Origin: Escherichia phage vB_EcoM_EC001
Reading direction: 5' to 3' (one strand)
DNA: 64,000 bases
Sequence record: MN445185.1
Below the pieces are notes generated by a model that had not been told where the DNA came from, ran no database searches, and was given only the letters and a program-made list of their open reading frames with translations. A program made the translations under genes and the position numbers. Position 1 is the stretch's first letter, and each line of letters opens with the position of its first letter. Of this stretch, positions 21,098 through 64,000 are shown piece by piece.

Positions 21098-21625
21098 ATG
21101 GGATACCGTATAGATTTATCAAAAACCCCGAAACAGATTCTGGTTGAGAGAATCAATTACGTTTTTAAGTTATCGTATAGTGAAAATAACTACGAGTTTA
21201 ACCCACGTGGGGTGTGGCCGTTAACCCAAGCAGAGCGACGCGCTAAAGGTGTGGAGTCTAAAGTTGCGGCGCGCTTTGTAAATGGGGTACACGGCACTCA
21301 AGAGTTTTACCTGACTCGTGCGGACTTAAACAAGTTACTTAAAGACGTAACGGTTGAAGTCCCGAAGGGTGCGGCAGAATGGAGCCATGAATTAGTTCCG
21401 TATATTGTCGATGAGCTGGGTCTCCAGCTTGACACCTACGATATCATGGTTGAACCGATTACCCCGGAAATGGAATCGTATGAGGCGCGCTTAATCCCGC
21501 ACCATCTATCTTTCAAAGGCACGATTGCGATTACTTTTGTTGACCCAACTCCCCGTAAGCTGGCGCAGCTGGTAACTAAACGGGCACTCGACGGGTTTCG
21601 CCCAGGAGAATTTTTAAATGGCTAA
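21098..21625 (+). CDS. hypothetical protein
   Basis: 175-aa ORF tightly following upstream gene. Confidence 0.55.
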   Translation: MGYRIDLSKTPKQILVERINYVFKLSYSENNYEFNPRGVWPLTQAERRAKGVESKVAARFVNGVHGTQEFYLTRADLNKLLKDVTVEVPKGAAEWSHELVPYIVDELGLQLDTYDIMVEPITPEMESYEARLIPHHLSFKGTIAITFVDPTPRKLAQLVTKRALDGFRPGEFLNG

Positions 21626-22505
21626 CACCAAAGTTTACGACGGTAAACTGTCAACAGTGACTCTTAACGCGATGCGACTTACGACCGCGCTATTGACAGG
21701 TGCTGACGTGCAGTACCCACAGAAATCCACGATGAATGAGTTTTATAAACTCATGACCGCGAAGGTTCCCGATGGCGCTACACGTCCGCATTTAGGATAC
21801 ATGTGCGTGGGTAACCGTGGTCACATCGTTGATCAGTCTGATGTTGTGGCAGACGTTGTTCCCGTCGCGAAATCCCCGATTGCGTCAGGGATGTTCTCGC
21901 GCGTTCCATTGGTACTGCGTACGTTGGATAATGACTTGTCTGATGAGCAACGTAAACAGTACGCTTTCCGTACTCGTGAAACTATCGGCGCGCGGGATTA
22001 CTGGGCGTATTATCTGAAACGTATCGACATGCGCGCAGTGAAGACCACTGACCTGGATATCACTCGCGAAAACGGTGTTGAAACCGTCAAAGATTTCGTC
22101 TATACCGATGCGGAACTGAACCCGGTACCGAAAGAACTCCCAGACTACGATTACGACGATGACGGCACTGTAGAGATCCCCGACGGTCGTTATGTTGAAT
22201 CGGGCGCAGACCTGGTGATTCCATGGACTGAGTTTGATGTTCAGGAATACATGAACGTGACGGCGATTCTACGTGGTACGCCACGCAGTTCGATTATCTC
22301 TGAAATTGCGCTGTGCTCTGGCGTTGATACCCCTGAAACGGGTGAGTCGGCTACCGGTTCACAGTTCAGCTACGACGAAGCTATCGGTGTGCAGGCGTTG
22401 TACTACATCTCCCTGTTCACTAACCTGGCACAGACCAACGATCGTCTGTCACTGACCATCCGTATCGGCCAGCCGGCACCGTGGTTCTTAGGGACAGCTA
22501 ACTGA
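21618..22505 (+). CDS. hypothetical protein
   Basis: 295-aa ORF; GGAG ribosome-binding site; overlaps upstream stop. Confidence 0.55.
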   Translation: MANTKVYDGKLSTVTLNAMRLTTALLTGADVQYPQKSTMNEFYKLMTAKVPDGATRPHLGYMCVGNRGHIVDQSDVVADVVPVAKSPIASGMFSRVPLVLRTLDNDLSDEQRKQYAFRTRETIGARDYWAYYLKRIDMRAVKTTDLDITRENGVETVKDFVYTDAELNPVPKELPDYDYDDDGTVEIPDGRYVESGADLVIPWTEFDVQEYMNVTAILRGTPRSSIISEIALCSGVDTPETGESATGSQFSYDEAIGVQALYYISLFTNLAQTNDRLSLTIRIGQPAPWFLGTAN

Positions 22506-44048: not shown

Positions 44049-44588
44049 ATGGCAGACCGCTATCAGCCCGACCTAACACTGAGTTCAAAAGCGCTAGTCT
44101 TAGCGCTTATCAATCATGACAATAATCTGTCACTTACTGATAAAGAGATTGTGATTAGGGATATTGATGCGAACGCTTCACCAGACATCATCCCGAAGAA
44201 CACACAGGCAAGCGTGGCCAAAGCACGTAAGCCAAATGGGAAAACCGTGACAGTCTATTATGACCGGTTAAGTGCGTCTACCGTGCTAGACAGTTTTCAG
44301 CCGCTATTGGTGTCCTTAGACGGAACCGAAACGGACATTCAGCAAATTGCCAGTGTGATTAACGGTTACTGCGGTACAAACTTGTCAGCAGCAGACTTAC
44401 AGTCTGCGCCAATCGTGGTCAGCGACGATTTTACCCTGGTGAATATCACTGGCGATTCCCCAGCATGGCTTGGGACATTTATCGCAACCCTGTTTACCAA
44501 AAATGAGTACGTTCTTTCAACTGACACTGACACGGTGCTGTGTCTGGATGAGAACACTGTGCTCGTACTGACTGACGAGGAAGAGTAA
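44049..44588 (+). CDS. outlying member of the N-module-A paralogue family (see 53644-64000)
   Basis: LVLALINHDNN ... TVTVYYDRLSASTVL matches the family N-module pattern. Confidence 0.55.
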   Translation: MADRYQPDLTLSSKALVLALINHDNNLSLTDKEIVIRDIDANASPDIIPKNTQASVAKARKPNGKTVTVYYDRLSASTVLDSFQPLLVSLDGTETDIQQIASVINGYCGTNLSAADLQSAPIVVSDDFTLVNITGDSPAWLGTFIATLFTKNEYVLSTDTDTVLCLDENTVLVLTDEEE

Positions 44589-45073
44589 TGGCCAGCCCAG
44601 TTAAAAAGCAAACATTTGAGAGCTTACCATTTTATACCGATATCACCAACGTGAAAGATGGGATGTTCTTGTTTATCAAAGATGGGAAAGCGTATCAGTA
44701 CCCGCTCGAGATGTTGGGTGTCCAGAAGGTTGCTCAGGGTGTCGTTATTCGTGATGCGGCGTATGAGTTGGAAGCGGCAGCAGCCACTGATTGGTACCTA
44801 GGACTGTCGCAACCGGAAACCGATCTCACTATTAAACCTGATGGAGTATTGGGGGCATTTCGGTACACGCTCAACCTGACTATTCTTCAGGGAACGGGAG
44901 CCAACAAAATTAACTGGCCTTCCAACGTGAAGTTCCCCCATGATGCATACCCGGTGCTGTCGTACCAGAAAGGGAAATCGGACATGATTACCCTGACTAC
45001 AATCGACGGCGGTTACACCTGGAAAGGTGGCGTTAGTGGAACAGGATATACAGAATGGGTAGAAACTCCTTAA
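44588..45073 (+). CDS. hypothetical protein, likely tail or fibre-associated
   Basis: 161-aa ORF between a family member and the 1005-aa protein. Confidence 0.5.
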   Translation: MASPVKKQTFESLPFYTDITNVKDGMFLFIKDGKAYQYPLEMLGVQKVAQGVVIRDAAYELEAAAATDWYLGLSQPETDLTIKPDGVLGAFRYTLNLTILQGTGANKINWPSNVKFPHDAYPVLSYQKGKSDMITLTTIDGGYTWKGGVSGTGYTEWVETP

Positions 45074-53465: not shown

Positions 53466-53497
53466 TCGACGATTGAGGATATAGTCGTGAAGAAAAG

Positions 53498-53524
53498 GGA
53501 GCTTCGGCTCCCCTTCTTTTTTTG
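53498..53524 (+). terminator. rho-independent terminator (UUCG loop)
   Basis: GGGAGC-TTCG-GCTCCC then CTTCTTTTTTTG. Confidence 0.85.
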
Positions 53525-53643
53525 TTTCCTTTTCTTTTTTGTTTGCTCTTGTTCAGATTCTGGTACGCGCTACGCTTTTAATATGCTGGCAGGAGGTCTA
53601 AAAATCTTACGACCTCAATAATCCCTTAACTCGAGTTAACGCG

Positions 53644-54441
53644 ATGTCTTTTACTTCAAAACAGAATCTGCTAAAACTCATCAACGAAGAGAATAAGATA
53701 AGCCCACCGCTTACCTTTGACGATGTTGATATCGGACTGCCGGAGGTTGTGTCAGTAGACGGTCGTGATTCGGAGGTGGTACTAACCTCGAAAATGCGCG
53801 GTGATGAAGGTACGCAAGTGATTGTGGACTACCATCGTCGTCCATTAGAGGACTACCTTACAGGCGATGTTGCCTTTGGCGATGAAGATGTGCATACCAC
53901 GCACGACTTACTCGCGGCGATTAACGAGCGTTTTAATCTGTCTATCTTACCTGAGGATATCGAAGATAACCCCATTGAAGGACAGACGCACACAGTCGTT
54001 GCTGTTGAAACTTCCCACGAGTGGAGAAGTCAAGCGGTCATCGAGCTGAAACCTGCTACACCTCTGGCAGAAGTAATAACCAATACAGAGTTGAGCGGTC
54101 TTCTGTACCCGGATCACCAGGACATCCAGTTGGGTCAGGCGTATATCTATTCGCGCGACATCGATTGTAGCCACATCTCTCGTTTCCTGAGCCTCTTAGC
54201 GGTCGGTATCGAAGTAGATGACACGGCGTTAGCAATCGAACTCAACAAATGTGTTCCTGAGATTTGGGTGGCTGAAGATACCCCATCCCCGTATAACTTG
54301 CGTGGTGCTACTGTCGTATTCGACGGCGTACCTGCAGACTTACCGGGAGCAAATACGGCGTTCGCGAAAGTCGTGTCAGTGCAACTGACCGATAAATGTA
54401 CGAACTTCCAGGGCAGCCTCAACTTACACTTTAACAACTAG
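53644..54441 (+). CDS. paralogue-family protein P1 (N-module A + LHYN-type C-module)
   Basis: shares N-terminal pattern and C-terminal CTNFQGSLNLHFNN with neighbours. Confidence 0.6.
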   Translation: MSFTSKQNLLKLINEENKISPPLTFDDVDIGLPEVVSVDGRDSEVVLTSKMRGDEGTQVIVDYHRRPLEDYLTGDVAFGDEDVHTTHDLLAAINERFNLSILPEDIEDNPIEGQTHTVVAVETSHEWRSQAVIELKPATPLAEVITNTELSGLLYPDHQDIQLGQAYIYSRDIDCSHISRFLSLLAVGIEVDDTALAIELNKCVPEIWVAEDTPSPYNLRGATVVFDGVPADLPGANTAFAKVVSVQLTDKCTNFQGSLNLHFNN

Positions 54442-54451
54442 GAGGGTATAG

Positions 54452-55294
54452 GTGTCTATTTACGATAAGCCCTCGAAAGAGATGTTGTTAGATGCTATTA
54501 ACCGACAGAACGGATTAACGGCCAATCCACTCACATGGGAGCAGGTTGCAACTGGCTTCCCTGAGTCTGTCCAAACGCCTGGCGCTGACCGGAATACACG
54601 TGTACTCTTATACGGGTTGAACGGCAAGGGCTACAAAGGCAACGTTACGCTCGAATACGACCGTATCGAAATGGAAATTCTGTTCAGGAACGTAATACCG
54701 GTAGTCGTTGCCGACCCGGTAAATAAACTCTCTGAGTTGTTGCCGTTTCTGAATGCGAAATACGGCTTGTCTTTAGTTGCCGATGATATCGTTGACCAGT
54801 CAGTAAAAGATTTGGGAGAAAGCTGGTTAATCGATGTGACTATTAAGCCCGGTTGCTTGGCCTGGCAAGGTGGTTTCCGTTTACGCTTTGCGAAGTTCTT
54901 CCCGAACCTGGCGGATGTGGTGACGGATGTTGACCTCAGCGCAATTATCGCACCGTTCGTGGTTGCTAGTAAACCGCAGGCTGAATATGTGGCGTATGGT
55001 TACGATTGGACTGAACTGCAAAAACAGTTCACTACCGATTGGGCTTACAACCGTGCAATCACTGCAGCGGATGTTGAGTTGTTGAATGAAGTGGTGCCAT
55101 TAAAGTTTGCATATGTGACGGGGGCGAATGCGCAACCTGAACAAATTGCACTCCAAGGTGCACGATTTATGGGGATAACTTCAGTCACACCGAACGATAG
55201 TTACAACCCCGATTATCAGCGTGTGGCGATTATCAAGCTAGCTGCGGACAGCAACTACGCCGGTAATCTCATCCTTCATTATCTCCCGATATAA
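54452..55294 (+). CDS. paralogue-family protein P2
   Basis: AGGAGGG ribosome-binding site, GTG start; NRQNGL ... LNAKYGLSL ... NLILHY. Confidence 0.6.
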   Translation: MSIYDKPSKEMLLDAINRQNGLTANPLTWEQVATGFPESVQTPGADRNTRVLLYGLNGKGYKGNVTLEYDRIEMEILFRNVIPVVVADPVNKLSELLPFLNAKYGLSLVADDIVDQSVKDLGESWLIDVTIKPGCLAWQGGFRLRFAKFFPNLADVVTDVDLSAIIAPFVVASKPQAEYVAYGYDWTELQKQFTTDWAYNRAITAADVELLNEVVPLKFAYVTGANAQPEQIALQGARFMGITSVTPNDSYNPDYQRVAIIKLAADSNYAGNLILHYLPI

Positions 55295-55304
55295 GGATTT
55301 TGAC

Positions 55305-56150
55305 ATGCCACTTTTAGCCACAGCTGAAAAGATTATTATCGCGGAGGTTAACGTCGAAAACAATCTCGACTTAAAAGTCGAGGATGTTGTTTTTGGTGTC
55401 CCTGCGATTCCAACGTCTGACGAAGACTTGGCAAAAGCTAACGGTCACAACGCGATGGTGCGTATTCAGGCATTGGCCACGGCTAATGCTATCGGTGCCA
55501 CTACCGTGTACTACGATCGTGTTGACTTCGCAGACATGTTTACCGATCCGGACGGGATTCAACCTTTACGTGTTCCTGCACGTCTCGATGCTGTTTACCA
55601 GATGCATGACGTGGTCGGGTTAATTAACCAGTATTACGGTCTCAGCCTTAAACCTGCAGATGTGGTGAATACCGAAATCGACAGGAAGACATGGCGTGTG
55701 GATCTGATTGCCACGCCCTCTTCTTTAGGTTGGATAGGGCAACAACAGGTACAGCTGTTACCAGGCGATGCGTTGCTTCCTGCAAACTTCGAACCCTTAA
55801 CAGTGATGCCTTACGAGTATCCGTATTTCAACATCAAGGTCGGTCAAGGTGCAGTTTATTCGTATCCCTGGCGCTTTGATAATTTCGCGGAGGAATTTCA
55901 ACGACTAGGTGCTGCGATAACCACAGAACGTCTGGCACAGATTCTCAAAACGGTCACCGGTGATAACTGGACAACATACCGTAACCCTATCGACTTTAAC
56001 CTTCGTGAAGCCGTCGTCGTCTATAACGGGCGTAACAAAGCGGAATTACCAACCAACCCAGCAGTCGACAACGTGCTGATTGTGGAGCTGTCGTTGTACT
56101 GTCTGAATTTTGGCGGGCGTTTGTATTTGCATTACAACGACCCTGATTAA
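55305..56150 (+). CDS. paralogue-family protein P3
   Basis: TTVYYDRVDFADMF, LINQYYGLSL, LYCLNFGGRLYLHYN. Confidence 0.6.
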   Translation: MPLLATAEKIIIAEVNVENNLDLKVEDVVFGVPAIPTSDEDLAKANGHNAMVRIQALATANAIGATTVYYDRVDFADMFTDPDGIQPLRVPARLDAVYQMHDVVGLINQYYGLSLKPADVVNTEIDRKTWRVDLIATPSSLGWIGQQQVQLLPGDALLPANFEPLTVMPYEYPYFNIKVGQGAVYSYPWRFDNFAEEFQRLGAAITTERLAQILKTVTGDNWTTYRNPIDFNLREAVVVYNGRNKAELPTNPAVDNVLIVELSLYCLNFGGRLYLHYNDPD

Positions 56151-56171
56151 TCCTGAGTAAAGGAAGTAAGA

Positions 56172-57083
56172 ATGAAACCTTTAAACAAAACGTCCGATAA
56201 GCTGGTTCTGGATTTTATTAATGAGAAAAACCCAGACGCAGAACTGGAACTTTCTAAAATAACGCTCGGCACACCGACCCCTATTACCGATGAAGGTGCT
56301 GATCGCAATACCAGCATGACCCTGACTGCGAAAAAGAACTCCGGGTACATCGGTACTCAGGACGTGACTTATAATCGCCTGGAAGGCGGTGCGCTGTTCC
56401 GTAATGTAACCGCATACCTCGACGTTAAACTGCCGAAAACCACCACCGACCTGCTGACGACCCTGAACACCCAATACGGATTGAAGCTGACCGAAGACGA
56501 TATCGTTCCGGCGGCTATTCCGGAAAATACCAACCCGCCGCTGACTAACCCGAACGATCCGGACCCAGCACCGGTTGACCACGTCATTACCTTCAAAGAA
56601 GACTGCTACGCTTATCTGGGCAGCATCCCGGTTAAAATCGGTGCTAAGCCTCAGGTTGGTGAACGTCTGAGTCTGGTGGTAACACAAACCAAGCTCGACG
56701 GCTTGGTTTACCCAGATGGTCCAAGCGAAGCGAAGGGTCAGGGCTACATCTACTCTTACGGTGTAGACTGCACAGCAATCGCAGCATTCCTGAAAGTACA
56801 GGCGAAAGGTGTTATCGCTGGCGACTCTGCATTCCCGGTTGAGCTGAATAAAGTTGTGCCGGAACTGTGGGTTGCATCTGATGAGCCTGCGGATTATAAC
56901 CTGAAAGGCGCTAACGTGTTGTACGTTGGTTCTACTACTGACGATGGCACTGCTTCAGGCGACGAACCTAAGAAACCGGTTGAAGGTGCAAACACTGCTT
57001 ACAACCAGGTTCTGCTGCTGCAGCTGGATGACACTCTGTGCACCAACTTCCAGGGTATCATGTACCTGCACTTTAATGCCTAA
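56172..57083 (+). CDS. paralogue-family protein P4, the strongly codon-optimised (likely most abundant) member
   Basis: AAAGGAAG ribosome-binding site; heavy optimal-codon bias; CTNFQGIMYLHFNA; own terminator downstream. Confidence 0.65.
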   Translation: MKPLNKTSDKLVLDFINEKNPDAELELSKITLGTPTPITDEGADRNTSMTLTAKKNSGYIGTQDVTYNRLEGGALFRNVTAYLDVKLPKTTTDLLTTLNTQYGLKLTEDDIVPAAIPENTNPPLTNPNDPDPAPVDHVITFKEDCYAYLGSIPVKIGAKPQVGERLSLVVTQTKLDGLVYPDGPSEAKGQGYIYSYGVDCTAIAAFLKVQAKGVIAGDSAFPVELNKVVPELWVASDEPADYNLKGANVLYVGSTTDDGTASGDEPKKPVEGANTAYNQVLLLQLDDTLCTNFQGIMYLHFNA

Positions 57084-57096
57084 TTAGGCCTCGCTG

Positions 57097-57137
57097 GGAG
57101 GAGGAAATCCTCCTCCTGGCTACTCCTTTCTTTTTTG
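57097..57137 (+). terminator. rho-independent terminator
   Basis: GAGGAGG-AAAT-CCTCCTC then CTGGCTACTCCTTTCTTTTTTGG. Confidence 0.7.
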
Positions 57138-57152
57138 GCCGAGGAGGCTATT

Positions 57153-57992
57153 ATGGCTTTATATAGTCTGTCTCAGCGACAATATCTGTACGATGCGATT
57201 AATGCCGAAAACCCGGATGCTGTGCTACCGATGGGTTTAGACAATGCTATCATCGGCACGCCGAAAGCAATCACACCGACAGCAAGCGGTGCCAATACTG
57301 AGATTATCATTCGTGGTCGTCAAGGTCGTGGCTATATCGGTCCTCAGACGTTCCGTTATAAGCGCTTGTCGCTGAACGACTTATTTAAGAACATGACACC
57401 TCAGGTAACTGCACCGAATGCCTACGGTTGGTTGAACGTGGAGTCGAAACGTACTGCGTTTGCGCAGAACCTGAACGGTCGTTATGGATTAAACCTGGTT
57501 GCAGATGATATCCCAGAACAATACGTTTATCTGAACGTAAACAACACGATGCGTATTAACGCTAGCTGTATCCAATACACTGGCAGCATCACCTTTATGT
57601 CTATCCGGGGTAAGAATAGCCTCGAAGACCTCGTGGTAAACGACATCTTGTTGGCTTTGAACCACCCTGCAGCAGCAAGCACTGGTAAGAAATACATGGG
57701 CTTCTTGACGTACGGGGAAGACTTTACTGACGAAGTGCAGGTTATGGCCTCGTTTAAGAACGGGCGAATGGACGTAGGAAGTAACTTTGATTTGGGTTAC
57801 ACGTCCAATCTGATGGCCACATTGGTCGCACGTGGGGTACCGTCGTTTGATCCGACGAACTGCACAATTACCCGCTACAAAACGAGTGAGTTGGCGACCG
57901 CCAATAAAGCGTACGATAACGTATTGCTGATTACCGGCATTCAGAACGACCCGAAAGTAATCGGCGAGTGTATGTTGCACTACAACAACTAG
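57153..57992 (+). CDS. paralogue-family protein P5
   Basis: GAGGAGG ribosome-binding site, ATG 57153; LNGRYGLNLVADDI; ECMLHYNN. Confidence 0.6.
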   Translation: MALYSLSQRQYLYDAINAENPDAVLPMGLDNAIIGTPKAITPTASGANTEIIIRGRQGRGYIGPQTFRYKRLSLNDLFKNMTPQVTAPNAYGWLNVESKRTAFAQNLNGRYGLNLVADDIPEQYVYLNVNNTMRINASCIQYTGSITFMSIRGKNSLEDLVVNDILLALNHPAAASTGKKYMGFLTYGEDFTDEVQVMASFKNGRMDVGSNFDLGYTSNLMATLVARGVPSFDPTNCTITRYKTSELATANKAYDNVLLITGIQNDPKVIGECMLHYNN

Positions 57993-58002
57993 GAATTAGC
58001 GA

Positions 58003-58890
58003 ATGGCTATTTATCAACCTTCTAAAGACGTCCTGTTGGCAGCAGTGAACGCACAGAACTCGCTTGCTGTTAAGATGACTGACATCATCTGGTCCTCGCC
58101 AAAGGACATCCGTGGTACGGAGAAGGAAACGCTGACTAACCGTAACACGCAAATTAAAATTACGGCAGATGGGGTAACGGGCTCTACCTGGTCGGGTAAG
58201 AAAAATGTCTTCTACAACCGCATGAAAGTCGAAGACTTGTTAGTGCTGATCGGTGACACGTTGGCGATCGGCCCATCCAACGAAACCTTGTATGCGGCCA
58301 TTCCTGGACTGAACCAACGTTACGGTTTTGTTCTGGAAGAAGCTGACCTGCAGGACGCAGATATCGAATGGAACGGTGATAAGACCGAAGGAACTGTGCG
58401 CGTTGTTGCACATCCGGAGTCTATCGGTTGGGTTGGACAGGCGACATTTAAAGTCGTGAAAGGTGATGAGTCGTTAGTCTCTGCAGTCACCACTAACGTC
58501 CTGACCGGTCTGAAATACCCGAACGGTCAGATGGGTTCCGAAAATGTTACTGCGGTCATTGCAGAGGTTTATTCCTACCCGTACAACTTCACCAAATACC
58601 GTGATACTCTGCTGGCATACACGCCAGGTATTCTGTCCGGACAGCCGTTGACGGATATGGTTAACATGCTGAAATATATTACGGGTACGGCATGGGTAGC
58701 GACCACCTCCGCTTCCTACGGTTTGGCGGGTGCGGAGGTTATCAGCGTTGGTCTGAATGACCCTGTTGCAATGCCGACAAACGCGAAGTACAAGTATGCG
58801 CTGGTGTTGAAACTGCCTGTTACCTGTACCACCATCGTCGGAACGTTGTATCTCCAGTTCAACGATCTGGACGATCCAAGCGAGGTATAA
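58003..58890 (+). CDS. paralogue-family protein P6
   Basis: LNQRYGFVL; CTTIVGTLYLQFND. Confidence 0.6.
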   Translation: MAIYQPSKDVLLAAVNAQNSLAVKMTDIIWSSPKDIRGTEKETLTNRNTQIKITADGVTGSTWSGKKNVFYNRMKVEDLLVLIGDTLAIGPSNETLYAAIPGLNQRYGFVLEEADLQDADIEWNGDKTEGTVRVVAHPESIGWVGQATFKVVKGDESLVSAVTTNVLTGLKYPNGQMGSENVTAVIAEVYSYPYNFTKYRDTLLAYTPGILSGQPLTDMVNMLKYITGTAWVATTSASYGLAGAEVISVGLNDPVAMPTNAKYKYALVLKLPVTCTTIVGTLYLQFNDLDDPSEV

Positions 58891-58893
58891 TTG

Positions 58894-59721
58894 ATGATCA
58901 ACTATGCTAAGCCGTCAAACGAGTTGGTCTTTGACCTCATTAACCGGGATAACCCAAACCTACCTATTAAAGCGTCGCCGGCAAACTGCTACGTGGAGAA
59001 AGTGACGCAGGTTCCCGTTAATGCAGCTTCCAACAACCGCAATACGTCGGCACGCTTGCGCGGTATTCAGGGTTCCGGATTTCGAGACGCAATCACCGTT
59101 TACTACGACCGTGTGAACTTAGCGCGGTTATTGCCGTGGGGTCCTTCTGTTCAGGCGCAGTTCGTCACGTTTGACGCGCCCAACCTCCACTCAGCCTTTT
59201 CGGTGCTCTTGGATACTTACGGAGTAAACTTCTCTGCAATCGATATCTATAACCTCCCACTGGCGGGTCCCAATACCCCAAATTACACCAATACACAGAA
59301 CATCGTAGCGCTATCGACATCTCCGGCTTATATCGGTTCTGCGACGTTGCGTTATAACCGTGGTTTACCGGTACTAGATACTTCGGTGAAAACGGATGTC
59401 TTGAATGCGATTCAAGAGCCTATTTCACCGTCTCTCGGTAAGAAGTGTATTGATTTGTTGACGTACGGTATTGACTTTACCGCGTATAAAAACCTACTGA
59501 CAGTAGATGCTTCTGGCCTACCGCAGTGGGCTGGTTTGCGTAAGGTGTTGGATGACCTGGGTATTCCGAACTACGCGGGGCCACTGAACAGTAACACCGT
59601 TCAGGATGTGCCGACATCCACCGCTCAGTTCGCTAACAAATCGTACGACCGCGTGGTTGTCCAAACGGGTATCGATGAGGAAGGCGTGAAAGGCGTGGCG
59701 TACTACCACTATAACAGCTAA
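58894..59721 (+). CDS. paralogue-family protein P7
   Basis: ITVYYDRVNLARLL; GVAYYHYNS. Confidence 0.6.
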   Translation: MINYAKPSNELVFDLINRDNPNLPIKASPANCYVEKVTQVPVNAASNNRNTSARLRGIQGSGFRDAITVYYDRVNLARLLPWGPSVQAQFVTFDAPNLHSAFSVLLDTYGVNFSAIDIYNLPLAGPNTPNYTNTQNIVALSTSPAYIGSATLRYNRGLPVLDTSVKTDVLNAIQEPISPSLGKKCIDLLTYGIDFTAYKNLLTVDASGLPQWAGLRKVLDDLGIPNYAGPLNSNTVQDVPTSTAQFANKSYDRVVVQTGIDEEGVKGVAYYHYNS

Positions 59722-59726
59722 GTGTA

Positions 59727-59752
59727 GGGGCTCTTCGGAGCCCCCTCTTTTG
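59727..59752 (+). terminator. rho-independent terminator (UUCG loop)
   Basis: GGGGCTC-TTCG-GAGCCCC then CTCTTTTGG. Confidence 0.7.
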
Positions 59753-59768
59753 GCGATGCGGAGTCCCT

Positions 59769-61181
59769 ATGCTATTTTACTCGAAGGAGTCGGCACTGCT
59801 TGTATACGACCAAGTCAATCGGGATAACCCTGATTTAGTTGTTAAGCTGACGCCGGCTATCGCTGCTTTAACCAGTGGCCCAACTTCAGTTACGTTAAAC
59901 CAACGTAACACCAAAGCTGTTTTCACCGGGTATCCAGGGACAGGTGTACAAGGTAATGTTACCGTGTACTACGACCGGATTAACCTGGCCTCTTTATTTA
60001 ATTTTGTGCCGACTGTGGCTATCAAAGATACAGTCTTAACGGTACGAGACGCGCTACCTGCAATAAACAACGCTTTGGGGCTTACATTAGTTGCTTCTGA
60101 TTTGCAGTCACCTGACGCAAGTTTACCTAAACCGAGCGCTTCGCCGCAGACGTTGAAATTAAATATCTCAGGTAATTGCCCTGCGTTTACAGGCAGCTTA
60201 ACGATACGTTATACCGTCCCGAGCGGTGCAATTTACCCCGATTCTGGACCTGGCCCTAAAACGTTGCTGCAAGGTAACACTATCGCGGGTTATTTCGGAA
60301 CAACCACAATTGCAGAGTTGTTTACACACTCTCAACTTCTTAATGCCACTATATCGGCCGGTGCGTTACCACCGGTACATTCTGGTGCCGAAGGTTGGTA
60401 CAAGTTCTTTTACCAGGGTAGGGTTATTTACCTTCCGATCAGTCCTGTCGCTAGCTCCATCTCCTGGAATACGTTATATACAAACGGACTCGTTTACGGA
60501 ACAGATGATAATGGTAAATACCCTGCGGCGACGCCCGTTAACCAGGGACGCATCATTAGCTTTACAGGCGCAGACAACAAAAGGTTTTACTTCCGTGTTC
60601 GTCTACCTAGTGCCGGGAAAGACCCATACGTCAGCGGCACCCCAACTGCCGCTGAGTTAGCAGGTAGTGAGTTTGAGATGTTCAACTTTCTGTATAATGG
60701 AACGTGGGACAAACCGATTAACAGTTACTGGACGCTGTTCTGTTTATTGAAAGATACACTGAAGACCAACGTCGCCAATCATCGCATGGCGACGTTGTCT
60801 GGAGCAAGTTGGACAAACTTAGAAAAATCATCGAGTGCGGGCAACTACTACTGGTTCCCGGTGCTGGAGTTGGTGGATAAGTCCACAGTTACCTTGGGTT
60901 TAGAAGATATCCATGGTGCGGTAGATTACAGTCTCCAACCGTGCAGCGTGTCCGCAGAAAACACATTTAGTCTCAAGCCGTTAGTGCTCGGTAATCCGGA
61001 TACTACCGATTTCGAACCGGTAGTTGTTACTTCAGAAAACAGTTTCGCACTGCATCCGCCTGCTTTAATGCTGCCGAAGACAGTCGACTTCCAACCTATT
61101 GCGGCTACCGCTGAAATGTATACGCCCCCTGACAAGACAACGTTAACGTCTCTTAACGGTGAACTGGACGGCTTTAAGTAG
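59769..61181 (+). CDS. paralogue-family protein P8: N-module A + GPGP/GYFG C-module B + C-terminal short repeats; fibre or receptor-binding candidate
   Basis: VTVYYDRINLASLF; YPDSGPGPKTLLQGNTIAGYFG; YYWFPVLELV; repeated xENxFxLxP...DFxP units. Confidence 0.6.
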   Translation: MLFYSKESALLVYDQVNRDNPDLVVKLTPAIAALTSGPTSVTLNQRNTKAVFTGYPGTGVQGNVTVYYDRINLASLFNFVPTVAIKDTVLTVRDALPAINNALGLTLVASDLQSPDASLPKPSASPQTLKLNISGNCPAFTGSLTIRYTVPSGAIYPDSGPGPKTLLQGNTIAGYFGTTTIAELFTHSQLLNATISAGALPPVHSGAEGWYKFFYQGRVIYLPISPVASSISWNTLYTNGLVYGTDDNGKYPAATPVNQGRIISFTGADNKRFYFRVRLPSAGKDPYVSGTPTAAELAGSEFEMFNFLYNGTWDKPINSYWTLFCLLKDTLKTNVANHRMATLSGASWTNLEKSSSAGNYYWFPVLELVDKSTVTLGLEDIHGAVDYSLQPCSVSAENTFSLKPLVLGNPDTTDFEPVVVTSENSFALHPPALMLPKTVDFQPIAATAEMYTPPDKTTLTSLNGELDGFK

Positions 61182-61192
61182 AGGTATCATCT

Positions 61193-62191
61193 ATGTCTTT
61201 TACTTTGCGTTGGAAAAATCCAAACGTAATCCCTACGGTAGTAAAAATCTACCGTGACGTTAAAGATATCACACCAAGCGCTTTGCCTGAACCGATTGCA
61301 ACGCTCTCAAATGGCGAGACAGAATGGCGTGATGCCACCGCCAAACCAGGCGCAATCTATTATTACCTTCTAACGGTAACCGCCAACGGTAAAACAGTAG
61401 CGTCGTCTAGCCAGAAATATACTGTTGAGGTAAAACGCGGGATAGGCCCAATGACTATTCTAAACGGTAACGACCGTTTAGGGTTTATGGGTGAGGTTCC
61501 TTACGACGAACAATGGCTTCCGTCGCAAATGCCACCTGCATTTTTGGCGATGTTCCCTAATCTATTAACCGATCGCGTGGCGTTGTATAAATTTACCCGA
61601 AACGGGAAGATCTATTACATGCTATCTAACACGTCGCAGTTCCCGAATACGCCTGTGGACTGGGCTTCCCTCTATCAAGCTGGTTTAGTCTATGGTACGG
61701 GCGATGCTGGCCCAGAGAACGGCCATGGAACGCTACCGGCCACTCCACAAGACGCTAAGATAGTCCACAAAGGGGATACGTACATCATGCGTCTTCCTCG
61801 CGGCCTGACGATGTCTAGCGAGCCTCCTGCGTATCCTTTCGTAGCTGACTATAATGGGAAAACCCATGATGAAATCGCTTCTCTAACCAACCCGTGTGAG
61901 TATAACGATTTACTTTACACGATGGTTAACGAGGTGCCGTGGAAACAGCGTTGGGCTAACTGGGCAACGAACAGTTATACTTTTCTGGGGCAGGGTACTT
62001 TGGGAACCTCGGCAACGTATTTCGGCGGTGGTGTTCTCTGTATGGAACACGACACCACGGAAGACCGTGTGCTCCATCGTGGTATTTTTAACAATGCCGG
62101 CGGAACACCCGTATCCGCGATTCAGCGTATAAACTATTTATCACCCACCACGAAAGGGCGTTACTACCCTATCTTTGAACTGGTCGAGTAA
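61193..62191 (+). CDS. fibronectin-III-like N-domain + C-module B protein P9
   Basis: AIYYYLLTVTANGKT; LNGNDRLGFMGEVPY; GLVYGTGDAGP; YYPIFELVE. Confidence 0.55.
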   Translation: MSFTLRWKNPNVIPTVVKIYRDVKDITPSALPEPIATLSNGETEWRDATAKPGAIYYYLLTVTANGKTVASSSQKYTVEVKRGIGPMTILNGNDRLGFMGEVPYDEQWLPSQMPPAFLAMFPNLLTDRVALYKFTRNGKIYYMLSNTSQFPNTPVDWASLYQAGLVYGTGDAGPENGHGTLPATPQDAKIVHKGDTYIMRLPRGLTMSSEPPAYPFVADYNGKTHDEIASLTNPCEYNDLLYTMVNEVPWKQRWANWATNSYTFLGQGTLGTSATYFGGGVLCMEHDTTEDRVLHRGIFNNAGGTPVSAIQRINYLSPTTKGRYYPIFELVE

Positions 62192-62200
62192 GGGGCAGTC

Positions 62201-63124
62201 ATGACTATACGGTTAAGCTGGCCGTCCCAAGCCAGCAAAGGTCTTACCGCGATTGAAATCTACCGCAAGGAAGGTTGGAACGCAACAATCGACGTTTACA
62301 ATCCAGGCGCACCCCACGCAACTTTATCGGGCAACGCGGTAGAGTTCGTAGATAATATCGATACCCTGACGAAGAACACAACCTATCGTTATTGGGTAGC
62401 TGCTGTGAAGGACAGTGAACGACTTATCGGCAATCCGATTACGCAAGGATTCTATCCGGACACCGGGCCGGGTCCGCAAACTATTTTGCGTGGTGACTGG
62501 GCTTCAGGTTATTTCGGTACAGTACCGAATACAGAGTTCTTTAATACTGCCGAGTTAAAACTCATGTTAACTGCGCAGCAGGGAAACATGTTTGTCTACG
62601 ACCCTCAGGAATGGCACAAGTTTATTTTCCGTGGGAGAATTGTCTTCTTCCCAGCGACGATGCATTCGAAAACCAACTCGGTACAAATGGCGTATCAGTA
62701 CGGTATGATGTACGGGACCGATGATGTCGGAAGTATTGTTCCGCAGGGAGCCACAGCGACTAAACAAGATTGTAAGGTCACGAAGGATGGTCGTACGTAC
62801 CGTATCCGATTACCTTACGCAGTCCCGTACGACGCTGTTCTCTCAGGACAGGATTACAACAACGGTGAATGGCGAAACACAATGGGCCGTTTGTATCCTG
62901 TCGCTGCACAGTTCGCAGCCCTCGGTCTTGGTGCGATTGACTCACTTGCAAGACAAGGCGCGACTGCGCAGCCGAATGAGTCAGGTGCCGCTGTATTAGC
63001 TCCTTTGTGGAGCAACAATATATTCGCTTATGCGTATGGCACCGTGCCTATGGGGATTAGTAACACCGCAGGTGTCGGGAACTCGGCCACGATATTCTTT
63101 GCTTTTGAATTAGTCTTACCGTAA
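62201..63124 (+). CDS. fibronectin-III-like N-domain + C-module B protein P10
   Basis: TTYRYWVAAV; YPDTGPGPQTILRGDWASGYFG; MMYGTDDVG; FFAFELVLP. Confidence 0.55.
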   Translation: MTIRLSWPSQASKGLTAIEIYRKEGWNATIDVYNPGAPHATLSGNAVEFVDNIDTLTKNTTYRYWVAAVKDSERLIGNPITQGFYPDTGPGPQTILRGDWASGYFGTVPNTEFFNTAELKLMLTAQQGNMFVYDPQEWHKFIFRGRIVFFPATMHSKTNSVQMAYQYGMMYGTDDVGSIVPQGATATKQDCKVTKDGRTYRIRLPYAVPYDAVLSGQDYNNGEWRNTMGRLYPVAAQFAALGLGAIDSLARQGATAQPNESGAAVLAPLWSNNIFAYAYGTVPMGISNTAGVGNSATIFFAFELVLP

Positions 63125-63137
63125 CGGAGTAAAAGCC

Positions 63138-64000
63138 ATGGGGTTGTATACAGAACCTTCAATGGAACTGCTCTGCCAACAAATTGTGCGTGACAATCCC
63201 GGTTTAGCAGGAAAAATCACCGCTGACTCCATTGGGGTCAGGGGTGTTCCTGTTGCGAGAAACGTTAACGGACGAAACACACAGATTACGTTGGTAGGAA
63301 AACCCGGTAAAGGATTTGCTGGGGAAATAACGGTATATTACGACCGGTTGAATCTGGCCAGTCTGTTCAAGTCTGGCCCGAATATGGTGAGTATTCCACG
63401 TAGCGCACAAACCCATGCGGAAGCGTTACCGGCGTTCAATGAATTGAACGGGTTGAACTTAACCGCGAGTGATATCACCAGTCCAAACGTTGCATTAATG
63501 AAATACGCTACGCCGGAAACTGTAACTCTGACGGCGCACGCTAACTCCTTGTGCTATACCGGGTCATGCAAGATGACCTATGTTTACGAACCGATTGCGA
63601 TGTATCCGAAGTCGGGTCCTGGGCCAAAAGGATTAATGGCTGGTAATGAGTTATACGGATTCTTTGGGCTGGTAAGCGCGGAAGAGTTATTCACATCTGA
63701 TGAAATGGTGTATGCACTCTATAACGGCACCAACTGGCCTAACCGCTACGCTATCAAGTGGCTCAAATTCTTTCTGAATGGGGCGGTAGTGTTTGTTCCG
63801 ACCCGTGCGATTTGCAACGTTACCTGGGCAGACCTGTACAACAATGGTGCAATATTTGATTCCGGAGACGCAGGACCTCGCCCGAAGTCGACTTACACAC
63901 CTGTCGATGTTGAACAGTTGAAATACATGGTAAAACGGGATGATGAAGGAACGCATTATTTCAGAATGTCTATCCCGTATTACACCGAGAACGCCGCCGC
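63138..64000 (+). CDS. paralogue-family protein P11 (N-module A + C-module B), 3'-truncated by window end
   Basis: ITVYYDRLNLASLF; YPKSGPGPKGLMAGNELYGFFG; no stop before window end. Confidence 0.55.
   Translation, partial: MGLYTEPSMELLCQQIVRDNPGLAGKITADSIGVRGVPVARNVNGRNTQITLVGKPGKGFAGEITVYYDRLNLASLFKSGPNMVSIPRSAQTHAEALPAFNELNGLNLTASDITSPNVALMKYATPETVTLTAHANSLCYTGSCKMTYVYEPIAMYPKSGPGPKGLMAGNELYGFFGLVSAEELFTSDEMVYALYNGTNWPNRYAIKWLKFFLNGAVVFVPTRAICNVTWADLYNNGAIFDSGDAGPRPKSTYTPVDVEQLKYMVKRDDEGTHYFRMSIPYYTENAA

What the first reader, a model, noticed from the sequence alone, without database searches (positions are those of the whole stretch)
53644..64000. Tandem array of at least 11 modular paralogous genes, likely a shuffled fibre or receptor-binding repertoire
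Eleven consecutive same-strand genes (53644 to window end) are built from three reusable modules. Module A is an N-terminal domain of about 110 aa with pattern L.xD.IN..N ... RNT ... G..G ... V.YYDR(L/I)NLA.LF ... YGL.L..DI, found in P1-P8 and P11 and also in an isolated gene at 44049-44588. A C-module ending ...C.NF.G.(L/M)YLH(Y/F)N closes P1-P7. Module B (YPD.GPGP..L.G....GYFG ... W.KF ... YGTDD.G ... RLP ... ELV) occurs in P8-P11, where P9 and P10 carry a fibronectin-III-like N-domain instead of module A. One member (P4, 56172-57083) has extreme optimal-codon bias and its own terminator, suggesting it is the abundant constitutive form. A shared anchor domain plus variable distal domains is the architecture expected for alternative tail fibres or surface decoration proteins, and may determine host range.
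Basis: partly seen in the sequence, partly recalled or inferred. Interest (0 to 1): 0.8.

Follow-up and report, generated by a model that had tools for sequence, protein, structure and literature searches.

The report
Known jumbo-phage virion filament gene array
This run of eleven related genes is the already published "Paralog family B" (Pfam DUF7941) array of SPN3US-like giant Salmonella phages: virion proteins now thought to link head-to-tail into flexible filaments that help the phage find its host, though where they sit on the particle is still disputed.

Summary
Eleven consecutive same-strand genes (53644 to the window end) are significant paralogs built from four modules. The array is already known: the window is 98% identical to Salmonella phage SPN3US, and these genes are its gp138–gp148. 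They belong to the 17-member tandem family published in 2016–17 as "Paralog family B", and every member was detected in virions by mass spectrometry. The N-domain of P9/P10 is a true FN3 fold. Module B is an unannotated domain confined to chimalliviruses. P4 (gp141) does have strong codon bias and a conserved downstream hairpin, and it is the published high-copy member. New here: module-B genes form three-gene cassettes that were duplicated and lost en bloc (three in Seoulvirus, four in an Erwinia relative). P2–P7 are conserved like core structural genes, while module-B genes diverge fast. No recent shuffling is visible. The best mechanism is head-to-tail DUF7941 filaments carrying binding modules (Goslar preprint 2026; phiKZ gp127 at the baseplate rim). 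SPN3US tailless-mutant proteomics, which places the family with heads, conflicts with this. The "alternative tail fibres" reading is only partly supported.

The parts
53497..53512 (+). Canonical intrinsic terminator (GGGAGC-TTCG-GCTCCC followed by a T-run). It closes the upstream unit, and about 130 nt of non-coding leader follow before P1.
53577..53589 (+). Motif TTTAATATGCTGG in the P1 leader, conserved in the Erwinia phage pEa_SNUABM_4 leader. It is a candidate phage promoter element but is not recurrent in the window.
53644..54441 (+). P1, orthologous to SPN3US gp138. Full-length DUF7941 (module A 3–133, linker, C-module 140–265).
54452..55294 (+). P2, orthologous to gp139. Full-length DUF7941. 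The GTG start at 54452 fits the family N-terminus; the RefSeq SPN3US annotation starts 10 codons later.
55305..56150 (+). P3, orthologous to gp140. Full-length DUF7941.
56172..57083 (+). P4, orthologous to gp141, the major high-copy subunit. The AF2 model shows a globular NTD (1–160), a disordered but sequence-invariant linker (162–183) and a globular CTD (188–303). Fop is 0.726.
57093..57136 (+). Conserved hairpin (CTGGGAGGAGG-AAAT-CCTCCTCCTGG) followed by TTTCTTTTTT. It is terminator-like and lies between P4 and P5. The P5 Shine-Dalgarno sequence follows.
57153..57992 (+). P5, orthologous to gp142. Full-length DUF7941.
58003..58890 (+). P6, orthologous to gp143. Full-length DUF7941, and the second most abundant and codon-biased member.
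58894..59721 (+). P7, orthologous to gp144. Full-length DUF7941.
59727..59744 (+). Canonical terminator (GGGGCTC-TTCG-GAGCCCC followed by CTCTTTT). It separates the DUF7941 block from the module-B cassettes.
59769..61181 (+). P8, orthologous to gp145; cassette 1, gene 1. It has module A (1–147), module B (156–371) and a repeat-containing tail that ends in the conserved peptide NGELDGFK.
61193..62191 (+). P9, orthologous to gp146; cassette 1, gene 2. It has an FN3 domain (1–85) and the B' variant of module B (82–332).
62201..63124 (+). P10, orthologous to gp147; cassette 1, gene 3. It has an FN3 domain (1–85) and the B'' variant of module B (85–306). The AF2 model has pLDDT 91.6.
63138..64000 (+). 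P11, orthologous to gp148; cassette 2, gene 1. Module A and the start of module B are present, and the gene is cut by the window end (287 of 498 codons).
44049..44588 (+). P0, orthologous to gp122. It has module A only (179 aa) and overlaps the start of a 161-aa tail-fibre gene. It is part of a swapped allele cassette.
21098..21625 (+). A second outlying member with module A only (175 aa; inferred to be SPN3US gp83 from its size and its position next to gp84). It ends in ...KRALDGF... and lies directly upstream of the baseplate-spoke gene.
21618..22505 (+). DUF7208 protein, the homologue of phiKZ gp139 (equated with Goslar gp32 in the Goslar preprint). In phiKZ this baseplate spoke is the band that DUF7941 protein gp127 terminates. 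It is context, not a family member.

Best explanation
The array is the SPN3US-type 'Paralog family B' (DUF7941) locus. It encodes a set of co-packaged virion proteins that most likely build long, flexible, heterogeneous filaments on the outside of the particle.

Shown:
- Each DUF7941 protein is a globular N-domain, a conserved but intrinsically disordered linker, and a globular C-domain.
- P4 (gp141) is the high-copy subunit. P1–P3 and P5–P7 are lower-copy paralogs that are conserved across host genera.
- Module-B genes come in fixed three-gene cassettes (A–B–tail, FN3–B', FN3–B'') that evolve as units and diverge fast.

Inferred from Goslar and phiKZ work:
- The linker of one protomer docks on the N-domain of the next, giving head-to-tail polymers.
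- The polymers are anchored through module A to the end of the gp139-type baseplate spokes.

Inferred here:
- A+B+tail proteins join the chain through module A and through a conserved C-terminal ...NGELDGF peptide that resembles the linker core.
- They present module B and FN3 partner proteins as binding heads, along with the Gp38-adhesin-bearing last gene of the locus. These heads would widen the capture radius for host-surface structures, possibly the flagellum that SPN3US uses as its receptor.

The confidence given is for the external-filament mechanism. Identity as virion-associated DUF7941 / Paralog family B proteins is near certain.
For: - Identity: the window is 98.3–98.7% identical to SPN3US/SEGD1 over the array.
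- Pfam DUF7941 matches P1–P7 full-length (E 1e-68 to 1e-87) and the N-half in P8, P11, P0 and 21098–21625.
- Architecture: the P4 AF2 model has two confident domains and a linker with pLDDT <50. That linker (VGERLSLVVTQTKLDGLVYPDG) is nearly invariant in orthologs down to 46% overall identity.
- Homology to a protein located in a solved virion: the family profile hits phiKZ gp127 at E 2.3e-27, and Foldseek matches 9XQD (the outer peripheral baseplate) at E 2.5e-6. gp127 terminates the gp139 band.
- Synteny: a module-A-only gene sits directly upstream of the gp139 homologue in the window, as DUF7941 genes flank gp32 in Goslar.
- Filament formation: recombinant Goslar gp22 forms filaments, and AF3 predicts head-to-tail docking.
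- Host-recognition modules: an FN3 fold, and module B fused elsewhere to Laminin_G_3 lectin, Kelch and DUF285 domains. The gp155 homologue carries a Gp38 adhesin domain.
- Abundance and codon bias.
- En bloc cassette evolution.
- Conserved C-terminal peptide in 6 of 7 A+B+tail proteins.
- Flagella as the SPN3US receptor.
Against: - In SPN3US, all family-B proteins, including the adhesin-bearing gp155, were recovered from CsCl-purified tailless particles of two different mutants at levels equal to or above wild type. They were therefore assigned to the head. An exclusive baseplate anchorage predicts their loss.
- The phiKZ gp127 placement rests on docking AF3 models into 4.4–4.7 Å maps, at one copy per star lobe.
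- The fibre cloud has not been visualised on any virion, and filament formation is shown only for one Goslar protein in vitro.
- No multimer prediction could be run here, so linker-to-NTD docking for these proteins is untested, as is the role of the NGELDGF peptide.
Confidence: 0.55

Rival explanations
1. The proteins form external filaments or decoration attached to the capsid or neck rather than the baseplate. They would act as head fibres, with the same polymer chemistry but a different anchor.
For: - Family-B proteins co-purify with tailless heads at wild-type levels in two SPN3US mutants.
- gp155, with a tail-fibre adhesin domain, is also in the head fraction. An adhesin makes little sense inside a capsid.
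- SPN3US is reported to use flagella as its receptor.
- From my own knowledge, not checked here: head filaments or fibres are used by other flagellotropic phages (phiCbK; also 7-7-1, which is mentioned).
Against: - phiKZ gp127 is modelled at the baseplate rim.
- A module-A gene is syntenic with the spoke gene.
- No capsid or neck density has been assigned to DUF7941 in phiKZ or Goslar.
- Self-assembling filaments could simply co-band with, or tangle around, heads.
Confidence: 0.2
2. The proteins are internal head proteins that are packaged with the DNA and ejected into the host. This is the SPN3US group's tentative label 'Head ejection?'.
For: - They are present in tailless particles.
- gp141 is as abundant as the sheath protein.
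- Chimallivirus heads do carry large sets of paralogous internal proteins (PF12699, family A).
Against: - The family is not among the eight prohead-protease-processed head proteins.
- Its homologue gp127 is external, at the baseplate.
- FN3, lectin-associated module B and a Gp38 adhesin domain are extracellular-type binding modules.
- Recombinant Goslar gp22 makes long filaments.
Confidence: 0.1
3. The array would be a repertoire of alternative, interchangeable tail fibres or receptor-binding proteins, with one shared anchor and variable distal domains, whose shuffling sets host range.
For: - The architecture is modular, with a shared N-domain.
- Module-B genes, especially the A+B+tail class, diverge fast (49–51% identity between Salmonella and Erwinia phages).
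- Cassette number varies between genera.
- P8 and P11 lengths vary in SaP7.
Against: - All members are present together in virions.
- P2–P7, including their 'distal' C-modules, are 76–83% conserved across host genera.
- There are no recombination-grade DNA repeats.
- Congruent trees show duplication of fixed units rather than domain exchange.
- No known RBP domain occurs in the eleven window genes.
- The locus that is actually swapped among near-identical phages is P0 plus the small tail-fibre gene at 44049–45073, not the array.
Confidence: 0.1

Closest known systems
SPN3US 'Paralog family B' (gp83, gp138–154, gp160/161, gp237; Thomas 2016 PMC5105663; Ali 2017 PMC5694885)
   Same: These are the same genes. 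P1–P11 are 97–100% identical in protein to gp138–gp148. The tandem array, virion association and gp141 abundance were all published.
   Different: - The publications treat the family as one PSI-BLAST group located in the head.
- They do not separate DUF7941, module B and FN3, describe the three-gene cassettes, or link the family to baseplate or fibre proteins.
- gp155 (module A plus a Gp38 adhesin domain) was not counted as a member.
Goslar gp22/gp23 and the proposed 'DUF7941 fibre cloud' (bioRxiv 10.64898/2026.04.21.720040)
   Same: - It is the same Pfam family, with the same NTD–linker–CTD architecture.
- There is one dominant high-copy subunit plus minor paralogs.
- Some members fuse module A to binding domains.
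   Different: - Goslar has 10 scattered members. This lineage has 18 in tandem plus outliers.
- The dominant Goslar subunit is the NTD+linker form (gp23), whereas here the array's dominant subunit is a full-length form (gp141). In SPN3US gp160 (18.5 kDa) is also highly abundant; it lies outside the sequence examined and its domain content was not checked.
- FN3 plus module-B cassettes are not described for Goslar.
- The preprint does not mention SPN3US or the head-fraction data.
phiKZ gp126/gp127 (PDB 9XQD; Xiao 2026 PMC13250141)
   Same: They are homologous over the full length, including the C-terminal ...G.L.(L/I)HYN motif. The N-domain fold matches.
   Different: - phiKZ has only 2–3 members, at one gp127 per star lobe.
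- There is no module-B cassette array.
- The location is modelled in phiKZ only.
phiKZ gp131–gp135 paralogous hetero-hexameric tail fibres (equivalent to SPN3US paralog family C, gp168–170)
   Same: Tandem paralogs share an N-terminal assembly module and have divergent distal parts, and they co-assemble into one appendage.
   Different: The sequences and folds are unrelated. Those are large (135–188 kDa) bona fide tail proteins that are absent from tailless particles.
T2/T6-type Gp38 adhesin (PF05268)
   Same: The last gene of the locus in SPN3US (725 aa, outside the window) has this domain at residues 373–553 (E 7e-18).
   Different: None of the eleven window genes has it. Here it is fused to DUF7941 N-domains rather than bound to a long-tail-fibre tip.

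Membership tests
Pfam DUF7941 (PF25613) | Match to the family HMM above the gathering score (27 bits) | tested here: met
   P1–P7 score 229–292 bits full-length. P8 (109 bits), P11, P0 and 21098–21625 match the N-half only. P9 and P10 do not match.
Pfam DUF7941 (PF25613) | Architecture of globular NTD, disordered linker and globular CTD (as described for Goslar gp22) | tested here: met
   The P4 AF2 model has mean pLDDT 85.5, with 174–182 below 50 and pTM 0.50, so the two domains are not mutually fixed.
Pfam DUF7941 (PF25613) | Homology and fold match to phiKZ gp127, the only member in a solved structure | tested here: met
   hmmsearch with the family profile gives E 2.3e-27. Foldseek against 9xqd_0 gives E 2.5e-6 and TMt 0.66.
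Pfam DUF7941 (PF25613) | Head-to-tail self-assembly into filaments | not testable with these tools
   No multimer prediction is available. The only evidence is for Goslar gp22 (negative stain, AF3). Indirect support here comes from the invariant linker motif.
SPN3US Paralog family B | Orthology and synteny with gp138–gp154 | tested here: met
   97–100% protein identity in the same gene order.
SPN3US Paralog family B | Presence in purified virions | not testable with these tools
   Published MS on SPN3US detects every member gp138–gp155. This was not measured for the window's own phage.
Fibronectin type III domain (N-domain of P9/P10) | FN3 beta-sandwich fold | tested here: met
Fibronectin type III domain (N-domain of P9/P10) | Match to a Pfam fn3-type sequence model | tested here: not met
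   There is no Pfam hit at E<=0.1. The only signal is weak profile similarity to bacterial Fn3-like chains (E 0.035–0.05).
Classical phage tail fibre / receptor-binding protein | A recognised tail-fibre, tailspike or adhesin domain in the protein | tested here: not met
   No such Pfam or PHROG domain occurs in P1–P11. Only the out-of-window gp155 homologue has GP38.
Classical phage tail fibre / receptor-binding protein | Loss from tailless particles (tail association) | not testable with these tools
   Published SPN3US data show the opposite: the proteins are retained in tailless particles.
Glycosyl hydrolase (annotation of P9/P10 orthologs in Proteus phage 7 and MET_P1_082_240) | A GH family domain, a GH fold, or conserved catalytic acidic residues | tested here: not met
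   - There is no Pfam GH hit.
- The 'GTDD' motif is not conserved in the B' class.
- The columns invariant across the nine paralogs are mostly glycines and aromatic residues.
Internal head / ejection proteins of chimalliviruses | Prohead-protease processing or a capsid-targeting propeptide | not tested
   Literature only: the eight or nine processed SPN3US head proteins do not include family B.

The most novel reading that the evidence does not exclude
The three-gene module-B cassettes (A–B–tail, FN3–B', FN3–B'') may each encode an obligate hetero-oligomeric 'binding head'. The A+B+tail subunit would plug this head into a DUF7941 filament, through its N-domain and its C-terminal NGELDGF peptide. 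Cassette birth and death (three in Seoulvirus, four in Machinavirus) would then tune which surface structures the filament network captures. In SPN3US-type phages the network would be anchored to the head or neck as well as, or instead of, the baseplate. That would explain the tailless-particle proteomics and would serve flagellum capture.
Probability: 0.15. Interest if true: 0.6.

Novelty: already known. Interest (0 to 1): 0.3.

Why it matters
The array itself is a rediscovery. It has been in the SPN3US literature since 2016 as possibly the largest paralog family in any phage, and its main domain is a curated Pfam family.

What remains open is function and location. Two experimental literatures disagree and do not cite each other. 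SPN3US genetics and proteomics say 'head'. The phiKZ and Goslar cryo-EM and modelling work says 'baseplate filament cloud'.

SPN3US-type phages carry the largest expansion of the family and have an amber-mutant genetic system, so they are the best place to settle the question.

The cassette structure, the rate contrast (conserved DUF7941 subunits versus fast-evolving module-B genes) and the conserved docking-like peptides give concrete, testable predictions about which genes are scaffold and which are host-contact parts. This matters for host-range engineering of jumbo phages.

Tried and rejected
- I tested whether linker+C-module and module B are distant homologues, prompted by the shared 'YPD.GP' motif. 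hhalign probability was 0.2%, so I rejected this; the modules are distinct.
- A short HMM of the DUF7941 linker did not significantly detect the C-terminal peptides of P8-class proteins. The resemblance (…TKLDGL… versus …NGELDGF) therefore remains an inference. It is supported only by conservation of the terminal peptide and a sub-threshold PHROG 4862 match.
- The apparent copy-number gain in SaP7 and SPFM19/21/22 (a 13.1 kb span, '14 genes') is an alignment artefact: the truncated P11 query matched a paralog. SaP7 has the same 16 genes.
- The motif upstream of P1 is not a recurrent promoter in the window.
- The supplement held as text for the 2023 SPN3US paper had no matches for the per-protein terms I searched, so head/wild-type ratios could not be obtained.
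- I considered whether the PDB entry 11lx that matches the spoke protein might be a neck-collar protein, which could reconcile head versus baseplate. The Goslar text gives no support, since gp32 is the spoke and gp126 the collar, so I dropped this.

Full report
**Source and identity**

The 10.4-kb region matches Salmonella phage SEGD1 (98.7%) and SPN3US (98.3%) end to end, and about 20 further Seoulvirus genomes at 94–98%. In the SPN3US RefSeq record the genes are annotated as 'virion structural protein'.

All are on the + strand and tightly packed, with gaps of 3–21 nt. The two exceptions are 69 nt after P4 and 47 nt after P7. P11 begins at 63138 and is cut by the window end.

**Is the paralogy real?**

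Yes. All-vs-all BLASTP gives the following:

- P1–P7: E 1e-7 to 1e-42 at 21–34% identity.
- A+B class (P8, P11 and SPN3US gp151): E<1e-55 at 29–39% identity.
- The two FN3+B classes: 38–47% identity within each class.

HMMs built from each module and run on all 284 window ORFs of at least 50 aa hit only these genes and two outliers. Profile–profile comparison finds no relationship between modules A, linker+C, B and FN3 (probability <=1%), so the module decomposition stands.

**What the modules are**

- **Modules A and C.** Together they are Pfam DUF7941 (PF25613). P1–P7 match full-length at E 1e-68 to 1e-87. P8, P11, P0 and 21098–21625 match only the N-terminal half.
- **P4 structure.** An AF2 model of P4 (26-sequence alignment, mean pLDDT 85.5) shows a globular N-domain (about 1–160), a low-confidence linker (174–182 below 50) and a globular C-domain (188–303). 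The linker sequence VGERLSLVVTQTKLDGLVYPDG is almost invariant in orthologs down to 46% overall identity. This is the signature of a peptide that folds on a partner.
- **Solved relative.** The only solved relative is phiKZ gp127 in the outer peripheral baseplate (PDB 9XQD). Foldseek gives E 2.5e-6, and the family profile gives E 2.3e-27 over residues 65–290, including the C-terminal ...G.L.IHYN motif.
  - Its fold recurs in BFVD almost only in 'virion structural proteins' of phiKZ-like phages.
  - tblastn finds it in 128 of 50,697 phage records, nearly all chimallivirus-type jumbo phages.
  - A profile search of 1.84 billion cluster representatives finds 1,864 relatives. Most are FN3+B, B alone or A+B. 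Some long proteins combine module B with Laminin_G_3 lectin, Kelch or DUF285 domains.
  - The 'glycosyl hydrolase' label carried by some GenBank orthologs is not supported.

**Array architecture beyond the window**

In SPN3US the locus is 18 consecutive genes:

- Seven DUF7941 genes.
- Three repeats of a fixed triplet (A–B–tail, FN3–B', FN3–B'').
- A 439-aa DUF7941 protein with an unknown C-terminal domain.
- A 725-aa protein with DUF7941 N-domains and a T-even Gp38 tail-fibre adhesin domain (PF05268, E 7e-18).

Erwinia phage pEa_SNUABM_4 has the same seven DUF7941 genes, with near-identical lengths, but four triplets.

A neighbour-joining tree of all 21 B modules gives the same topology within each of the three classes. 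So the three-gene cassette, not the single gene or domain, is the unit that was duplicated and lost. DNA repeats in the array are limited to 18–44 nt stretches at 66–85% identity over conserved motifs. There is no sign of recent gene conversion or shuffling.

**Expression signals**

Canonical terminators lie before P1 (53497–53512) and after P7 (59727–59744). After P4 there is a 12-bp GC-rich hairpin followed, 8–10 nt later, by TTTCTTTTTT. This fails the canonical scan but is nearly identical in SPAsTU and in the Erwinia phage, so it is a functional element.

P4 has Fop 0.726 (z=+3.0) and Nc 39.5. It ranks second of 75 window genes, after the 766-aa ORF at 8290–10590, which I take to be the major capsid gene from its size alone.

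**Agreement with published proteomics**

The array was described by Thomas et al. [quoted passage not shown] Ali et al. 2017 called it 'Paralog family B'.

Their spectral-count table gives SC/M for gp138–gp147 of 1.20, 1.24, 1.31, 9.39, 2.11, 3.70, 2.77, 0.91, 0.84 and 0.50. Three results follow:

- P4 is gp141, estimated at >300 copies per virion.
- Codon bias across P1–P10 correlates with these abundances (Spearman 0.71, p 0.02).
- Salmonella–Erwinia ortholog identity correlates with abundance too (0.89, p 6e-4).

P2–P7 are 76–83% identical across the two host genera (P1 is 55%). Module-B genes are 49–68%, and the A+B+tail genes lowest at 49–51%.

**Mechanism**

The Goslar cryo-EM preprint (2026) reports the following:

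- DUF7941 proteins gp22 and gp23 are among the most abundant virion proteins.
- Recombinant gp22 forms long filaments.
- AF3 predicts that the linker of one protomer docks on the N-domain of the next.
- A phiKZ gp126–gp127 dimer fits unexplained baseplate density.

The authors propose a 'DUF7941 fibre cloud' for host recognition. In the phiKZ atlas, gp127 terminates the band of gp139 dimers at each star lobe.

The window adds three supporting points:

- The gp139 homologue (21618–22505, E 1.7e-30) lies immediately after a module-A-only gene.
- P0 (module A only) overlaps the start of a small tail-fibre gene, and a 1005-aa tail protein follows.
- Six of seven A+B+tail proteins from Salmonella and Erwinia phages end in (T/A)(N/D)GEL(D/N)GF after a divergent, repeat-containing spacer. 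This resembles the linker core ...TKLDGL... and the ...RALDGF... of the module-A-only protein.

I infer, but could not test, that this peptide is a second donor element.

**The conflict**

SPN3US work assigns all family-B proteins, including the adhesin-bearing gp155, to the head. Their normalised spectral counts in CsCl-purified tailless particles of 64_112(am27) and 255(am107) equal or exceed those of wild type. Bona fide tail proteins drop out: the sheath, the tape measure and paralog family C (gp168–170) in the 2023 analysis, and gp84 (the spoke), gp123 and gp124, which carry no 'Head' flag in the 2017 table.

The Goslar preprint does not mention SPN3US, so the discrepancy is unaddressed. 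Three readings are possible:

- The proteins anchor on the head or neck.
- Self-assembled filaments co-purify with heads.
- The proteins are internal.

The adhesin, FN3 and lectin-partner content argues against the last. SPN3US is reported to use flagella as its receptor, which fits a filamentous capture device but proves nothing.

**Verdict**

- The fibre or host-recognition idea matches the current, still unproven model.
- 'Shuffled', 'alternative' and 'variable distal domain' are not supported for P1–P7.
- The new elements are the separation of module B and FN3 from DUF7941, en bloc cassette evolution with copy-number differences between genera, the rate contrast, and the conserved terminal peptide. 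These are modest refinements within a known system.

Noticed in passing
window 44049–45073: A swapped allele cassette. P0 (module A only) and the overlapping 161-aa tail-fibre gene (PHROG 9017) are 98–99.5% identical only to Salmonella phage JN03 and Escherichia phage vB_EcoM_Lh1B. In SPN3US, SEGD1, the SPFM and SPLA phages, SaP7 and Proteus phage 7 only the flanks match. Protein identity to the SPN3US alleles is 49% and 41%, while the adjacent 1005-aa tail protein is 97%. It is a better host-range candidate than the array itself.
   Followed up: partly
window 21098–22505: A module-A-only DUF7941 gene (175 aa) overlaps by 8 nt the start of a DUF7208 gene. That gene is the homologue of phiKZ gp139, the baseplate spoke that the Goslar preprint equates with Goslar gp32 (E 1.7e-30). 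The spoke gene has the third-highest codon bias in the window, Fop 0.627.
   Followed up: yes
L001 29777–31954 (SPN3US, 8 kb past the window end): The 725-aa protein that closes the locus combines two DUF7941 N-domain matches with a Pfam GP38 'phage tail fibre adhesin' domain (E 7e-18). It shares a C-terminal PHROG 6409 domain with the preceding 439-aa DUF7941 protein. It is listed as a 'Head' protein in SPN3US proteomics and is not counted in Paralog family B.
   Followed up: partly
window 57084–57152: The P4–P5 intergenic region (hairpin, T-run and P5 Shine-Dalgarno sequence) is nearly invariant between Salmonella and Erwinia phages whose coding DNA is only ~76% identical. Only the tetraloop and a few flanking bases change.
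   Followed up: partly
window 53560–53643: The P1 leader contains TTTAATATGCTGGCAGG and ends in GAGTTAACGCG immediately before the ATG. Both are conserved in Erwinia phage pEa_SNUABM_4. This may be a phage-RNAP late promoter or leader, but it is not repeated elsewhere in the window.
   Followed up: partly
window 54452–54481: The SPN3US RefSeq annotation starts the P2 ortholog 10 codons downstream of the GTG at 54452. The longer form aligns with the N-terminal helix of all other members and matches the Pfam profile from position 1.
   Followed up: yes
L003 13126–14511 and 16517–17989 (Salmonella phage SaP7): Among phages >96% identical over the array, SaP7 carries length variants of the two A+B+tail genes (1386 and 1473 nt against 1413 and 1497 nt). 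P10 is also its most divergent array protein at 93%. Variation is therefore concentrated in the module-B genes.
   Followed up: no
window 61193–63124 orthologs in MT679221 and OQ383623: The FN3+module-B proteins are annotated 'glycosyl hydrolase' in Proteus phage 7 and MET_P1_082_240. Nothing found here supports an enzymatic assignment.
   Followed up: yes
window 8290–10590: A 766-aa ORF has the highest codon bias in the window (Fop 0.83, Nc 33). Its size matches the 83.9-kDa SPN3US major capsid protein gp75. The identity was not checked further.
   Followed up: no
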